Assembly (NCBI GenBank): GCA_963796055.1
Contig: CAWCKH010000003.1
Span: 672,001 to 736,000 of the forward strand
Length of the DNA stretch: 64,000 nucleotides
Direction of reading: 5' to 3'
Origin: an uncultured delta proteobacterium
GTDB lineage: Bacteria > Myxococcota > Myxococcia > Myxococcales > Myxococcaceae
Both the position numbers and the translations under genes were made by a program. A model generated the notes under the pieces. That model had not been told where the DNA came from and did no database searches. It saw only the letters and a list, made by a program, of their open reading frames with translations. Below are positions 32,183-38,536 of this stretch, in pieces; within the stretch, counting starts at the first letter, position 1, and each line of letters begins with the position of its first letter.

Positions 32183-33430
32183 ATGAGACGCCAGTTTTCC
32201 CTGTTGATCGCCACCGTGATCATGGCCTGCGCCGGAGGCCAGAGCACCGGGACCGCCGCCCCGGCCGAGCGCCAGCGGGTGCAGAACCTCGTTCCCTTCG
32301 ACATCGGCAACTGCTTCCCCACCAGGCTCGATGTGGGCAAGACCGCGAACGAGTACACGCTGCAGGCCGCGTTCCGCGGCGCCCGCTCGGCCATCAACGA
32401 GTGCCTGGTGGACGCCAAGGTGCAGAACCCGAACGTGGCCACCAAGGGCAAGGCCACCGTCTCCCTCGACTCCTCGGGCACGGCGGTCACCGTGAGCAGC
32501 GACGGCCTCCAGCCCACGGCCGCCACCTGCATCGAGAGGGCCATCCGGTCGCGGCTGGAGGGGGTGGCCGTTCCCTCCGGCGGCAAGCCCCTCACCCTGG
32601 AGGGCCCCTTCGAGCGCGAGCCGAGCACCATGGTCCGGATGGGGCTCAACGAGGCCTCGGACGTCCAGGGTGCCATCCGCCTGGCGATGCCGCAGTGGTG
32701 CAGCTGCTTCGAGTCGGTCAAGGGCCAGGCTCCGCCCGAGCTCGTCGGCCCGGTGACCCTGACCCGCGAGGACGTGACCAAGTACGCCGACCGGCTGAAG
32801 GCTCCCGACGGCGGCACCGTCGTCAACAAGGGAGTGGTCGCGGCGCTGCAGCCCTCCGACCCGTCCGGGGCGCAGCTGGCGAGCTGTCTGAACCAGCGCG
32901 TCGAGTCGCTGCCTCTGAAGAGCAGCTCCGAGCAGCTCACGGTGCCGGCGCAGGTCCTGCTCGTCAACTCCAACGGCTCGGCCGCCATGCCCGCCGGCGT
33001 CCCGCCCCCGCTGCAGTTCGCCCAGCTGGACGCCGTTCGCGAGCTGCGCCAGGCCGAGGCGTTCGCCGCCCTCGCCCGCCGGCAGAACGTGGCCAACGCC
33101 TACGACGCGCAAGTCCAGGCGTACCAGGCGGCTGCCAACTCCAAGGACGCCAAGAAGCGCAAGGCGGCAGGCTCGATGGTCAAGGAGCTCAAGGCCGGCT
33201 GCGCCGGCCTGGTCAAGGCCGACGACGAGTACACCAAGGCGCTCGAGGGCGAGGCGGCGGTGGAGCAGCAGGCGCTGACCCTGGCCCAGTCGCTCAAGGC
33301 CAAGGAGCCGCAGTGGGCCGATGCGGAGAAGGCCTCCTCGGCTGCACTGGCCGACACCCAGAAGCAGATCGACGCCTCCAAGCAGCTCCGGGCGGCGAAC
33401 GAGAAGGCCTGTCCCAAGGAAAAGTTCTAG
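32183..33430 (+). CDS. Hypothetical Cys-containing lipoprotein with helical C-terminus
   Basis: Strong RBS AGGAGGAGG; LLIATVIMAC lipobox; its TAG stop is part of the IS core. Confidence 0.82.
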   Translation: MRRQFSLLIATVIMACAGGQSTGTAAPAERQRVQNLVPFDIGNCFPTRLDVGKTANEYTLQAAFRGARSAINECLVDAKVQNPNVATKGKATVSLDSSGTAVTVSSDGLQPTAATCIERAIRSRLEGVAVPSGGKPLTLEGPFEREPSTMVRMGLNEASDVQGAIRLAMPQWCSCFESVKGQAPPELVGPVTLTREDVTKYADRLKAPDGGTVVNKGVVAALQPSDPSGAQLASCLNQRVESLPLKSSSEQLTVPAQVLLVNSNGSAAMPAGVPPPLQFAQLDAVRELRQAEAFAALARRQNVANAYDAQVQAYQAAANSKDAKKRKAAGSMVKELKAGCAGLVKADDEYTKALEGEAAVEQQALTLAQSLKAKEPQWADAEKASSAALADTQKQIDASKQLRAANEKACPKEKF

Positions 33431-33449
33431 GATGGAGCGACCCGTCAAG

Positions 33450-33720
33450 TCAGCTCTCTCGTTCGTTGGTGGCGATGCGTCTGTTCGCTTCGCAGCTCCT
33501 CGTGGTTCGTACTTCGAGGCCTTCAGGCAGGGGACGAGCGAGGGAGCTGCGACGGTTGATCACTCTAGGATTCGCGGGTCGGCGGAGCCGCCGCATGACC
33601 GTGATTCGTCGGGAGGCTTTCTCGCTCTAGCGGCGTGGGTCGGCGGGTCGAGCCCGCCGCCACTTAGAACTGTCGAGAGTCCCTCCTACGTTCCTGGCTC
33701 ATCCACTGCCTGCCGGCTTC
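33450..33720 (-). ncRNA. Predicted bridge/seek RNA of the IS1111-type element (boundaries approximate)
   Basis: Structured non-coding end; internal loop carrying AGUUCUA and CGCUAGA matches both strands of the insertion site; AUCCUAGA matches the donor junction; 10-bp perfect stem 33490-33499/33543-33552. Confidence 0.75.
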
Positions 33721-33746
33721 GAAGCGATGCACGTACGTTGCTCCTT

Positions 33747-34841
33747 TCAAGCGGCGCGGGCGATGGCCCAGACAAAGCCGCAGAGCTCGCGAGCCACGGC
33801 GACGGCCGCGACCTGCGAAGGTTTGCCGCGGGAGACGAAGCGGTGGAAGCGCCGGTGCAGCCGCTCCTGGGCTTTCCATGCGTGGGCTACGACCTTTGCA
33901 TCCTGGCCCTCCCAGCGCTGTTTGATGACGCCGCTCTGGCGTGGCGGGCGCCGGTAGTGCCAGGCGGCCTCGACCAGTACGCGCCGGGCGTGTCCGTTGC
34001 CCGTCTTGGTGATGCTGCCCCGCCGCTCCTTGGCTCCGCTCGAGCGCTCGCTCGGGACGAGGCCGACGAAAGCCATGAACTGGTCGGGGTGCTCGAACCG
34101 CTGGAAGTCGCAGATCTCGGCGATGAGGATGACGGCCGAGAGCGTGTCGATGCCGCGCAGGCAGCGGAGCTTCGCAACGGGAGTTTTATAGGGCTCCTTC
34201 TCGGCGGCTGTCGCGAGTTCCTGGTCGAGCGCCTTGAGACGTCCGAGCGTTCCCTCGAGGCGGGCCAAGTACTCGGTGAAGACCGTCTGTGCGATGGGGG
34301 CCTCGAACGTCTGTTTGCGAAGCCACTTCCAGTGCGGCATCGACCAGTTCTTCTTGCCCTCGGTAAAGCTGCGCCCGTGGCGCAGGAGGAACTTCAGGAG
34401 TCGGTCGCGCTCGCGGATGACGTCCTCGCGCGCATCCTCTCGGCAGCGAACGAGATCCCGCAGCGCCTCCTCGGCCTCGGAGGGGACACGAATCGAAGTG
34501 AGCTCGCCGGCGCGGTAGAGGCGAGCGAGCTTCTCGGCGTCGCGCCGGTCGGTCTTGACCCGATCGCCGGCGCGCACCGGGATGAGCGAGGGCGCGACCA
34601 CGTCGCATGGGATCTTCATCGCTGCGAGCTGCCGGTAGACCTCGTAGCCGCAACTCCCGGCCTCGTAGCAGGCGCGGACCGCCCCTTCCTTTTTGAGCCT
34701 GCCGAAGCAGCGCTTCAGCTCGAGCGCATCGTTCCGGATCTTCACCGTGGGCCGAGCGCCTCCCCGGTCACCGGCCAGCACCGAGAAGGAAATCGACTCC
34801 TTATGCACGTCCATTCCGACGGTCAGCGTTGTAGTTTTCAC
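33747..34841 (-). CDS. IS110 family recombinase/transposase
   Basis: GMDVHK, CYEAG, KTDRRDA (DEDD RuvC-like) and GLVPSERSSG...GSITKTGN; intact 364-aa frame. Confidence 0.96.
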   Translation of the reverse strand: MKTTTLTVGMDVHKESISFSVLAGDRGGARPTVKIRNDALELKRCFGRLKKEGAVRACYEAGSCGYEVYRQLAAMKIPCDVVAPSLIPVRAGDRVKTDRRDAEKLARLYRAGELTSIRVPSEAEEALRDLVRCREDAREDVIRERDRLLKFLLRHGRSFTEGKKNWSMPHWKWLRKQTFEAPIAQTVFTEYLARLEGTLGRLKALDQELATAAEKEPYKTPVAKLRCLRGIDTLSAVILIAEICDFQRFEHPDQFMAFVGLVPSERSSGAKERRGSITKTGNGHARRVLVEAAWHYRRPPRQSGVIKQRWEGQDAKVVAHAWKAQERLHRRFHRFVSRGKPSQVAAVAVARELCGFVWAIARAA

Positions 34842-34942
34842 TCGACCGGCTCCTCGTTTGCGGCTCTGGCCGCGGCGTTGCCGAGGCTAATCCGCGCTGA
34901 ACGAGCGAGCCGGTCGCTCCATACTGTCTAGCGCACCACCGC

Positions 34943-38536
<3,594 letters not shown>

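What the first reader, a model, noticed from the sequence alone, without database searches (positions are those of the whole stretch)
33450..33720. Readable bridge/seek RNA: the IS1111-type element encodes guides for its own target and donor
Seen: removing the element rebuilds the empty site AAAGTT-CTAG-CGCACC. On the transposase (minus) strand, the non-coding end forms an outer stem (GGAGG..UCUCG / CGAGA..CCUCC, about 33611-33686) and an inner stem (about 33635-33663). These enclose an internal loop. Its 5' side ACAGUUCUA (33673-33665) matches the left target AAAGTTCTA at 8 of 9 positions, and its 3' side CGCUAGA (33632-33626) is complementary to TCTAGCG across the core and right flank. Further 3', AUCCUAGA (33571-33564) equals 8 nt of the predicted circle junction (CCATC-CTAG-ACAGT), next to a 10-bp perfect stem. 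Established: IS110/IS1111 recombinases use such bipartite loops for RNA-guided recombination, and IS1111 elements encode the RNA downstream of the gene. Inference: this is an intact, possibly reprogrammable myxobacterial member with a CTAG-containing core and preferred target near ACAGTTCTAGCGGC. I could not identify the second donor guide.
Basis: partly seen in the sequence, partly recalled or inferred. Interest (0 to 1): 0.9.

Follow-up and report, generated by a model that had tools for sequence, protein, structure and literature searches.

The report
Insertion sequence with readable guide RNA
A 1.5-kb jumping gene in this bacterium carries, behind its transposase gene, a folded RNA whose loops spell out both the site it inserts into and its own ends; this is a good new example of the RNA-guided "bridge/seek RNA" elements described in 2024, not a new kind of system.

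Summary
Window 33431-34927 (minus strand) is a 1497-bp IS110-family element flanked by CTAG, with 11-bp subterminal inverted repeats and a 364-aa DEDD transposase. Four more near-identical copies lie in the genome. All five sit at (G/C)-CTAG-AAC.

The 316-nt end downstream of the gene contains a conserved RNA. A covariance model built from 25 relatives finds it behind the transposase gene in 80 places in 87 sources. Its stems show compensatory changes.

One internal loop carries ACAGUUCUA, complementary to TAGAACTGT of the target. It also carries CCGCUAG, the same sense as the left target plus core. The second loop carries AAUCCUAG, which equals the right end plus core.

Across about 50 related families, each guide matches its own flank or end far better than shuffled pairings do.

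Corrections: the "10-bp perfect stem" is really 4+4 bp with a bulge. The target actually used is only about 8 nt. The exchange point is probably at AG inside CTAG.

No RNA or activity data exist. Verdict: a new member of a known kind, of moderate interest.

The parts
33431..34927 (-). Insertion sequence, 1497 bp (1501 bp with one CTAG copy)
   Evidence: Five near-identical copies in the genome end at exactly these bases.
33427..33430 (.). CTAG copy at the right-end junction. It also holds the TAG stop codon of the 415-aa ORF 32183-33430.
34928..34931 (.). CTAG copy at the left-end junction
33747..34841 (-). Transposase/recombinase gene, 364 aa, GTG start. Catalytic-motif residues D11, E60, D98, D101 and S268-G269.
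   Evidence: One search aligns it to the ISCro4 chain and lists IS621.
34912..34922 (-). Left subterminal inverted repeat ATGGAGCGACC, preceded by the 5-nt extension ACAGT (34927-34923)
33432..33442 (-). Right subterminal inverted repeat GGTCGCTCCAT, followed by C (33431) and then CTAG
33501..33732 (-). Whole structured RNA (about 232 nt). A long basal stem (33732-33692 with 33544-33501) encloses two arms.
   Evidence: Own-flank duplex is -54.8 kcal/mol here. Across relatives the own-flank mean is -47.5 against -24.2 +/- 9.1 for cross-family pairs.
33612..33686 (-). Target-binding arm: outer stems, internal loop, inner hairpin
   Evidence: compensatory changes; model hit at 33550-33687, 96.2 bits.
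33665..33673 (-). Right-target guide ACAGUUCUA, complementary to the top strand TAGAACTGT
   Evidence: The five sites match at 8, 7, 9, 7 and 8 of 9.
33625..33633 (-). Left-target guide CCGCUAG (33633-33627), same sense as left flank plus core, followed by 2 nt AG
   Evidence: The five sites match at 6, 5, 5, 6 and 6 of 7.
33550..33611 (-). Donor-binding arm: CGACG/CGUCG outer stem, internal loop, GCGG/CCGC inner stem
33597..33602 (-). Right-donor guide ACGGUC, 5/6 complementary to G+ACAGT (last core base plus the left-end extension)
   Evidence: across 43 distinct combinations, 4.05/6 against 3.22 +/- 0.12 when shuffled.
33565..33572 (-). Left-donor guide AAUCCUAG, equal to right end ATC + CTAG
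   Evidence: Variant relatives (L090, the L062 group, L008, L009) carry matching variants.
33443..33448 (-). TTGACG, a candidate -35 box that would face CAGTAT (34926-34921) over a 17-nt spacer only in the excised circle
   Evidence: 45 of 51 related junctions have TTGAC(A/G/T) here, and 34 of 51 reach >=9/12 in total. Ours scores 8/12. This is inference.
34921..34926 (-). CAGTAT, the candidate -10 box of the junction promoter
   Evidence: No promoter-like site was found in the linear element.

Best explanation
Window 33431-34927 (minus strand) is an intact IS110-family insertion sequence of the IS1111 architectural type. Its 3' non-coding end encodes a bridge RNA (seekRNA) of about 230 nt.

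Shown by sequence and comparison:
- The RNA is a long basal stem carrying two stem/internal-loop/stem arms.
- The first loop reads the target. Its 5' side, ACAGUUCUA, is complementary to the top strand of core plus right flank (TAGAACTGT). Its 3' side, CCGCUAG, has the sense of left flank plus core, so it would pair with the bottom strand.
- The second loop reads the element's own joined ends in the same way. ACGGUC would pair with G+ACAGT at the start of the left end. AAUCCUAG has the sense of the right end plus core.

Inferred by analogy with IS621 and ISEc11:
- The element excises as a circle joining right end, CTAG and left end.
- That junction may create a promoter (TTGACG, 17 nt, CAGTAT) that drives the transposase gene and the RNA behind it.
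- The DEDD/Ser recombinase binds the RNA.
- The two loops hold target and circle junction together, and strands are exchanged at AG within CTAG.
- The result is a simple insertion with CTAG on both sides.

In practice the element accepts about 8 nt, (G/C)-CTAG-AAC.
For: Protein.
- Pfam PF01548 and PF02371.
- NF033542 at 253 bits.
- The D..E..D..D and GLxPxxxxSG motifs align with the ISCro4 recombinase chain; IS621 is also listed.

Copies and target.
- The genome holds 5 copies, and the RNA region is identical in all of them.
- All 5 have CTAG-AAC on the right. The base before CTAG on the left is G in 4 copies and C in 1.
- Only 43 CTAGAAC words occur in the genome, among 1211 CTAG.

RNA structure.
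- On a plain MAFFT alignment of 25 sequences, 95.3% of cells pair and 9 pairs show changes on both sides. 0 of 500 shuffles reach this. Slid controls pair at 34-54%.
- RNAalifold finds the same helices on its own and leaves the four guide segments unpaired.
- Model R1 finds 80 matches in 87 sources. 77 of the 80 are on the strand to which the loci were oriented by the transposase match; 3 are on the opposite strand (L015, whose gene match one search places on that strand, L100, and a second hit in L096). The window has one hit.
- The basal stem is kept although its sequence differs: 46 of 60 own-flank duplexes are more stable than the cross-family mean minus 2 sd.

Guide code.
- Right-target guide against own right flank: 4.14/6, against 1.74 +/- 0.15 shuffled (55 families, 0 of 10,000 shuffles as high).
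- Left-target guide: 2.61/5 against 1.55 +/- 0.13 (47 families, 0 of 10,000).
- Right-donor guide: 4.05/6 against 3.22 +/- 0.12 (0 of 10,000).
- Left-donor guide: 4.98/5 against 4.33 +/- 0.06.
- Relatives whose right end differs carry the matching guide. Ours has CCT, L090 AGA, the L062 group GGA, L008 CTC.

Published rules (passages read).
- Guides pair with both strands and include the core.
- In IS1111-type elements the RNA lies in the right end.
- In IS1111-type elements the top-strand match lies 5' of the bottom-strand match.
Against: - There is no evidence that the RNA is made or bound.
- No promoter-like site was found in the linear element.
- The junction promoter scores only 8/12 in this element.
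- Rfam has no matching family.
- The right-donor guide is short and has an internal mismatch. Its covariation signal is modest because left ends are conserved.
- The left-donor test is partly circular, because I located right ends with that guide. The position was then cross-checked by finding the inverted-repeat partner with at most 2 mismatches in 70 of 80 rows.
- Related families are not independent, so the shuffle counts overstate significance.
- The left-target guide matches this copy's five sites at only 5-6 of 7.
- 17 empty GCTAGAAC sites remain in the genome.
- 4 of the 5 copies carry a 1-nt insertion that breaks the transposase frame.
- The minimum-energy fold of the single sequence closes part of the target loop. 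The cause is that both guides cover the palindromic core.
Confidence: 0.88

Rival explanations
1. The RNA guides target choice only, as a seekRNA in the narrow sense. The element's ends are recognised by the protein through the subterminal inverted repeats. On this view the 'donor loop' matches are a conserved protein-binding motif and not guides.
For: - The donor loop is nearly invariant across relatives (AUAUCAG and UGAUCAACCGUCG in most rows). That would also suit a protein-binding site.
- The right-donor guide is only 6 nt with a mismatch.
- Durrant et al. note that donor-binding nucleotides in many IS1111 orthologues sit in a multi-loop rather than a simple internal loop.
- The seekRNA paper describes target matches only.
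Against: - Wherever the right-end extension differs, the loop differs with it. This holds for ours, L090, the L062 group, L008 and L009.
- The 5' side changes with the left-end extension: AUC with AT, AUUC with AAT.
- Both tests exceed all 10,000 shuffles.
Confidence: 0.07
2. The RNA family is functional, but in this genome the element is no longer mobile. It would be a recent burst that has been inactivated, and the window copy would be a leftover.
For: - 4 of 5 copies have a 1-nt insertion in the transposase frame.
- The junction promoter is weak, 8/12.
- 17 perfect GCTAGAAC sites are unoccupied.
Against: - The window copy has an open 364-codon frame with all motif residues.
- Apart from the 4 bases that L005 lacks at its contig edge, the copies differ at only about 9 aligned positions, and none of these lies in the RNA region.
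- The insertions all lie beside GATC words, which may mean sequencing errors and not real frameshifts.
- The assembly holds both a filled and an unfilled version of one site.
- One intact copy could serve the others in trans.
Confidence: 0.15
3. The region is only a structured 3' untranslated region or a DNA-level end, and its resemblance to the flanks is coincidence helped by the palindromic CTAG.
For: - Both target guides contain the palindrome, so they partly pair with each other.
- Rfam gives no hit.
Against: - All three matches together occurred in 0 of 20,000 shuffles.
- Guides covary with flanks in about 50 families whose targets are unrelated to CTAG-AAC.
- Stems show compensatory changes.
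Confidence: 0.02

Closest known systems
IS621 bridge RNA and recombinase (IS110 group; Durrant et al. 2024, PMC11208160; Hiraizumi et al. 2024, PMC11208158)
   Same: - Same recombinase family. The catalytic motif positions are D11, E60, D98/D101 and S268-G269, against D11, E60, D102/D105 and S241-G242 in IS621.
- One RNA with a target loop and a donor loop.
- Each loop has one guide for the top strand and one for the bottom strand, and both guides include the core.
- The right-donor guide pairs discontiguously.
- A promoter is predicted across the circle junction.
   Different: - The RNA lies downstream of the gene in the right end, not upstream in the left end.
- Guide order within each loop is reversed: the top-strand guide comes first.
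- Both arms sit on a basal stem of about 40 bp.
- The element has 11-bp subterminal repeats.
- The core region is AG inside CTAG, not CT.
- Protein similarity is weak (E 2.8e-8, C-terminal domain only).
seekRNAs of the IS1111-family elements ISEc11, ISPa11, ISKpn4 and ISPst6 (Siddiquee et al. 2024, PMC11187229)
   Same: - Subterminal inverted repeats with terminal extensions.
- A long non-coding region downstream of tnp.
- An RNA with overlapping matches to both target strands, with the top-strand match 5' of the bottom-strand match.
- The GL-P----SG motif (ours is GLVPSERSSG).
   Different: - The transposase has 364 aa, against the 330-350 aa reported for that family.
- My RNA model finds nothing in two enterobacterial plasmid copies: IS5708, and an unnamed IS110-family copy beside a Tn3-family transposase gene. 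This RNA clade is therefore distinct in sequence.
- Here a donor-reading loop can be read as well. That paper describes target matches only.
Relatives found here (L023-L101, L008-L017, L114; 38-55% aa identity) in Acidobacteriota, Nitrospirota, Spirochaetota including Leptospira, Betaproteobacteria, Elusimicrobia, Polyangiaceae and an Alicyclobacillus plasmid
   Same: - Same RNA model (44-133 bits; ours scores 96.2).
- Same layout: 5-nt left extension, 3-nt right extension, AG core, and TTGACA inside the right end.
   Different: - The guides are different, so the targets are different.
- Most have the right-end extension ATC, where ours has CCT.
- Only ours shares as much as CTAGA between donor junction and target.
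- No relative is closer than 55% identity.
- No match at E <= 1e-30 was found in the 12 other genomes of the genus with this protein.

Membership tests
IS110 family (DEDD transposase elements) | Transposase with an N-terminal DEDD (RuvC-like) domain and a C-terminal Transposase_20 domain | tested here: met
   PF01548 (62 bits, cutoff 29) and PF02371 (74 bits, cutoff 21.3). NF033542 at 253 bits (cutoff 140).
IS110 family (DEDD transposase elements) | Catalytic D, E, D, D and a Ser-Gly in the C-terminal domain | tested here: met
   D11, E60, D98, D101 and S268-G269. In one search, GMDVH, CYEAG, KTDRRDA and GLVPSERSSG align with the ISCro4 chain. The IS621 residue numbers come from PMC11208158.
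IS110 family (DEDD transposase elements) | Site-specific insertion with a short core on both sides and no other duplication | tested here: met
   All five copies have CTAG on both sides. Unfilled sites carry one CTAG.
IS1111 group | Subterminal inverted repeats of 7-17 bp with terminal extensions | tested here: met
   ATGGAGCGACC / GGTCGCTCCAT, 11 bp. The extensions are ACAGT on the left and C (or CCT, counted to AG) on the right. The definition is from PMC11208160.
IS1111 group | The long non-coding end lies downstream of tnp (right end longer than left end) | tested here: met
   316 nt downstream against 86 nt upstream.
IS1111 group | In the RNA, the top-strand match lies 5' of the bottom-strand match | tested here: met
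   against the rule in PMC11187229 section 9.
IS1111 group | Transposase related over its full length to that of IS1111 and clustering with that clade (330-350 aa) | tested here: inconclusive
   The protein has 364 aa. It is about 25-26% identical to the enterobacterial plasmid copies and about as distant from IS621 and ISCro4. No tree with named reference sequences was built.
Bridge RNA / seekRNA | Target loop with two guides covering both strands and the core, covarying with the insertion site | tested here: met
   Five sites. 55 and 47 families with 0 of 10,000 shuffles as high.
Bridge RNA / seekRNA | Donor loop with two guides covering the joined ends | tested here: met
   The left-donor guide matches 8/8. 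The right-donor guide matches 5/6 with one internal mismatch. Covariation is; the left-donor test is partly circular.
Bridge RNA / seekRNA | Conserved secondary structure supported by compensatory changes | tested here: met
Bridge RNA / seekRNA | The RNA is transcribed, binds the recombinase and is required for recombination | not testable with these tools
   No RNA run was listed. This needs bench work.
Bridge RNA / seekRNA | Match to a curated RNA family | tested here: not met
   Rfam 15 gave no match up to E = 1 over 33000-35400. This shows only that no listed family matched.

The most novel reading that the evidence does not exclude
This element and its roughly 50 related families could form a separate, unusually legible branch of bridge recombinases. 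Three features would set it apart.

- Both loops are simple internal loops mounted on one long basal stem.
- The right-donor guide is reduced to about 6 nt with a fixed unpaired position.
- Donor and target need to share as little as one base at the exchange point.

The third point rests on 18 related rows. There the donor guide and the left junction read AG, while the right junction reads AA. In 17 of the 18 the target guide has UU at the two positions opposite the core, so it reads AA as well. That would place strand exchange between the two 'core' positions. In IS621 the cut is beside an identical dinucleotide.

The window copy would then be an intact, active and easily reprogrammable member.
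Probability: 0.3. Interest if true: 0.55.

Novelty: new member of a known kind. Interest (0 to 1): 0.35.

Why it matters
Bridge and seek RNAs are the basis of a young genome-engineering method, and new orthologues with different cores and guide lengths are in demand. This element adds a complete, intact example from a 70.7% G+C genome. Its guide code can be read directly and is cross-checked by five natural insertions.

The comparison set built here is about 50 families with readable target and donor guides. It shows how the IS1111-type RNA reads its own ends, which the published IS1111-type work that I read describes only briefly.

For the biology of the host, the element inserts at rare CTAG-AAC words. 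These mostly coincide with TTC-TAG gene ends, and the stop codon is preserved, so the insertions look harmless. None of this changes the known picture of the family.

Tried and rejected
- Rfam scan of 33000-35400 at E <= 1 gave no family.
- Public RNA runs: none was listed, so expression could not be examined and read laying was not used.
- The sigma-70 consensus scan of the linear element found 0 promoter-like sites. It found 2 terminator-like sites against 1.2 expected. Neither result is informative.
- A hand-written regular expression meant to locate the RNA in relatives failed on almost all loci. I replaced it with alignment-based coordinates and a covariance model.
- The idea that the 2 nt after the core in the donor loop match the first 2 nt of the right flank (a handshake for the right junction) was checked by eye. 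I saw no pattern and did not test it formally.
- The idea that the element specifically seeks gene ends was dropped. All 5 of 5 occupied sites end an ORF of >= 100 codons in TTC-TAG, but so do 22 of 38 empty GTTCTAG sites. This is a property of the word and not of the element.
- Model R1 found nothing in the two enterobacterial plasmid loci (IS5708, and an unnamed IS110-family copy beside a Tn3-family transposase gene). A direct link to elements with tested seekRNAs could therefore not be made.
- Earlier notes of this scan: nothing was returned.
- Literature search for 'bridge RNA' + IS110 + Myxococc*: 0 papers.
- The organism's identity was not pursued.

Full report
**What is there.** On the minus strand the window holds a 1497-bp element, 34927 down to 33431, with CTAG on both sides at 34928-34931 and 33427-33430. 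It has 11-bp subterminal inverted repeats: ATGGAGCGACC at 34922-34912 and GGTCGCTCCAT at 33442-33432. The left non-coding end is 86 nt. A 364-codon gene runs from 34841 to 33747, and the right non-coding end is 316 nt.

The protein matches Pfam PF01548 and PF02371. It also matches NCBIfam NF033542, 'IS110 family RNA-guided transposase', at 253 bits against a cutoff of 140. Its motifs GMDVH, CYEAG, KTDRRDA and GLVPSERSSG align with those of the solved ISCro4 recombinase; IS621 is the other solved chain listed. This gives D11, E60, D98, D101 and S268-G269. In IS621 the corresponding residues are D11, E60, D102, D105 and S241-G242 (PMC11208158, passages read).

**Copies and target.** The genome (5.53 Mb, 7 contigs, 70.7% G+C) holds five copies.
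- Apart from the 4 bases that L005 lacks at its contig edge, they differ at about 9 aligned positions. None of these lies in the right non-coding end.
- In element orientation the flanks are:
  - gtgcg-CTAG | CTAG-aactttt
  - gagag-CTAG | CTAG-aacagca
  - catgg-CTAG | CTAG-aactgtt
  - gtcgg-CTAG | CTAG-aacgggc
  - CTAG-aactgca, for a copy at a contig start.
- For that last copy, the end of contig C6 carries the unfilled site, gttgccc-CTAG-aactgca. It is 179 of 180 bases identical to the sequence after the element.
- So all 5 of 5 sites have CTAG-AAC. The base before CTAG is G in 4 and C in 1.
- CTAG is rare here: 1211 occurrences against about 14,800 expected from composition. CTAGAAC occurs 43 times, 5 of them at the element. 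17 GCTAGAAC words are unoccupied.
- Nine orthologous loci from other genomes of the genus lack the element. 5 of these 9 are colinear and show one CTAG at the site.

All are present at the stated coordinates (see the observation check). Taken together they are not chance, with 0 of 20,000 shuffles as good. The stem beside AUCCUAGA is 4+4 bp with a 2-nt bulge, not 10 perfect pairs.

**Relatives.** A scan of one genome per species found 383 stretches encoding relatives. The best 80 were kept, giving 79 distinct loci at 38-55% identity from many phyla.

In the host's own family, 5 of 201 genomes matched at E <= 1e-30, counting G000. None of the 12 other genomes of the genus matched.

I chose 27 of 73 loci in which an exact inverted repeat of at least 8 bp lay at a plausible distance on both sides of the gene. 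I aligned their right non-coding ends with ours. A block of about 130 nt is conserved.

I realigned this block for 25 sequences. Three of the 28 were dropped: L025, whose block was cut short in that alignment, and L034 and L048, which duplicate L032 and L047.

**Structure.**
- On that MAFFT alignment, my five helices (counted by the tool as six) pair in 95.3% of cells. 9 of 23 pairs have changes on both sides. 0 of 500 shuffles reach these values, and partners slid by 1-3 columns pair in only 34-54% of cells.
- RNAalifold, given no structure, returns the same helices and leaves the four loop segments open.
- A covariance model built from the alignment (R1) finds 80 matches in 87 sources. 77 of the 80 are on the strand to which the loci were oriented by the transposase match. 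The other 3 are on the opposite strand: L015 (whose gene match one search places on that strand), L100, and a second hit in L096. The window has one match, 33550-33687 minus, at 96.2 bits.
- R1 also hits an Alicyclobacillus plasmid copy, but not two enterobacterial plasmid copies (IS5708, and an unnamed IS110-family copy beside a Tn3-family transposase gene).
- The 45 nt before the block and the 50 nt after it form a long duplex in each element although the sequences differ. The own-pair mean is -47.5 kcal/mol, against -24.2 +/- 9.1 for cross-family pairs. 46 of 60 own pairs lie beyond the cross mean minus 2 sd. Ours is -54.8.
- The RNA is therefore about 232 nt, 33732-33501. A basal stem carries a target arm (33686-33612) and a donor arm (33611-33550).
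- The single-sequence minimum-energy fold (-138.2 kcal/mol, z = -3.9) shows the same arms. It closes part of the target loop, because both guides cover the palindromic core.

**Guide code.** I cut the four loop segments out of the model alignment for all 80 rows. I located each right end by the 7-nt word of the donor loop's 3' side. I located each left end by the inverted-repeat partner. 70 of 80 rows had a partner with at most 2 mismatches. At least three of these look wrong from element length and were kept in the counts.

Rows were grouped into 59 families with distinct target guides.

| Guide | Compared with | Observed | Shuffled | Families or combinations | Shuffles as high |
|---|---|---|---|---|---|
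| Right-target (6 nt 5' of the core complement) | First 6 nt of the right flank, as complement | 4.14/6 | 1.74 +/- 0.15 | 55 families | 0 of 10,000 |
| Left-target (5 nt before the core, 3' side) | 5 nt before the core in the left flank, same sense | 2.61/5 | 1.55 +/- 0.13 | 47 families | 0 of 10,000 |
| Right-donor (5' side of donor loop) | Complement of G plus the 5-nt left extension | 4.05/6 | 3.22 +/- 0.12 | 43 combinations | 0 of 10,000 |
| Left-donor (3' side of donor loop) | Last 5 nt of the right end | 4.98/5 | 4.33 +/- 0.06 | 43 combinations | 0 of 10,000 |

- The two target rows are, and the two donor rows are.
- In the target tests, families without a usable flank were left out. Out-of-register families were kept.
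- The left-donor test is partly circular, because I located right ends with that word.
- It is supported by the variant families whose ends were also found from inverted repeats alone. Ours has CAT-CCT-AG with AUCCUAG. L090 has ATA-GA-AG with AUAGAAG. The L062 group has CAT-GGA-AG with AUGGAAG.
- The families are related to one another, so these counts are not probabilities.

**Reading this element.**
- Right-target guide: ACAGUUCUA (33673-33665). It pairs with TAGAACTGT. The five sites match at 8, 7, 9, 7 and 8 of 9.
- Left-target guide: CCGCUAG (33633-33627). The five sites match at 6, 5, 5, 6 and 6 of 7.
- Left-donor guide: AAUCCUAG (33572-33565). It equals the right end ATC plus CTAG.
- Right-donor guide: ACGGUC (33602-33597). 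It is complementary to G+ACAGT at 5 of 6.
- The right-donor mismatch lies opposite the third base of the left end. The same internal position is unpaired in several relatives. This recalls the discontiguous right-donor pairing reported for IS621 (PMC11208160).
- In both loops the guide for the top strand comes first. That is the reverse of IS621 and is what Siddiquee et al. describe for IS1111-type seekRNAs (PMC11187229).

**Core.** Donor junction and target share CTAGA here. In most relatives they share only AG, with a 5-nt left extension and a 3-nt right extension.

In 18 rows the donor guide and the left junction read AG, while the right junction reads AA. In 17 of these 18 the target guide has UU at the two positions opposite the core, so it reads AA as well. 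The exchange point is therefore probably at AG within CTAG. Sequence alone cannot place it in this element.

**Expression (inference).** TTGACG lies at 33448-33443. It would sit 17 nt from CAGTAT (34926-34921) only after circle formation.
- 45 of 51 distinct related junctions have TTGAC(A/G/T) at this place.
- 34 of 51 reach >=9 of 12 matches over both hexamers. Ours reaches 8 of 12.
- A junction promoter is the published rule for IS621.
- The RNA lies behind the gene, so it would be made as the tail of the transposase transcript and then trimmed. That step is a guess.
- No promoter-like site was found in the linear element.

**Comparison and verdict.** Everything tested fits a bridge/seek RNA of an IS110-family element with the IS1111 layout.
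- Clade membership of the protein in the IS1111 group is open. It has 364 aa and is about equally distant from the enterobacterial plasmid copies and from IS621.
- Bridge RNAs were predicted for 93% of catalogued IS1111 elements (PMC11208160).
- seekRNAs were shown experimentally for four IS1111-family elements (PMC11187229, abstract and sections read).
- This is therefore a new member of a known kind.
- It is well preserved and has a clear code. It has probably been mobile recently, given near-identical copies and a site present both filled and unfilled.
- Evidence that the RNA is made, is bound, or can be reprogrammed is missing.

Noticed in passing
window 34115 and 34456 (positions in the element); loci L002-L005: Each of the four other genome copies is 1498 bp. 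Each has one extra base beside a GATC word in the transposase gene, at GAGA-TCTG in three copies and GGGA-TCTC in one. This splits the reading frame. Only the window copy is open. These may be base-calling errors at a methylated motif, or real frameshifts.
   Followed up: partly
G000 contig C6, last 180 bases, against contig C5 1495-1674: The end of C6 runs through an unfilled gttgccc-CTAG-aactgcagg site. It is 179/180 identical to the flank of the copy that starts C5. The sequenced material may therefore hold both filled and unfilled versions, or a near-identical duplicate.
   Followed up: partly
window 33425-33430 and the four other insertion sites: All five insertions lie where a long ORF (115-587 codons) ends in TTC-TAG. 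The duplicated CTAG keeps the stop codon. However, 22 of 38 empty GTTCTAG words also end such ORFs, so this looks like a property of the word in a 70.7% G+C genome.
   Followed up: yes
loci L054, L056, L059, L061, L070, L084, L087, L089, L091-L094, L096-L101: In 18 related rows the donor guide reads ...AUCAG and the left junction reads ...TAG-ACA. The right junction reads ...ATCAA-CG. In 17 of the 18 the target guide has UU at the two positions opposite the core. Donor and target therefore seem to differ at the second 'core' base. The shared target looks like GCCTAA-CG, which I recall as resembling integron attC core sites. That resemblance was not tested.
   Followed up: partly
G000 contig C7, minus strand around 41124: TCCATC-CTAG-AAC occurs with no element beside it. 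It is 13 bases identical to the right-end junction. This could be chance, a target look-alike or a footprint. The upstream sequence is unrelated to the element.
   Followed up: partly
loci with left extensions other than AC (L028, L031, L060, L090, the L062 group): The 2 nt after the core on the 3' side of the target loop equal the first 2 nt of the left end: AT, AT, AA, AT, TC. L009 (TC) looks the same once a one-base offset in my left-end call is allowed for, but it scores 0 of 2. This could be a handshake-like contact with the donor. In elements starting with AC, including ours (AG), the rule is loose. Overall the score is 1.28/2 against 1.12 shuffled, with 32 of 10,000 shuffles as high.
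   Followed up: partly
window 32183-33430 (+): The 415-aa ORF that ends at the insertion site has no Pfam match. It starts with a lipoprotein-like signal (…IATVIMAC). Its function is unknown.
   Followed up: no
genus and family of G000: With this protein, no match at E <= 1e-30 was found in the 12 other genomes of the genus, and only 4 of the 200 other genomes of the family matched. The best relative anywhere is 55% identical. This suggests the lineage acquired the element recently.
   Followed up: partly
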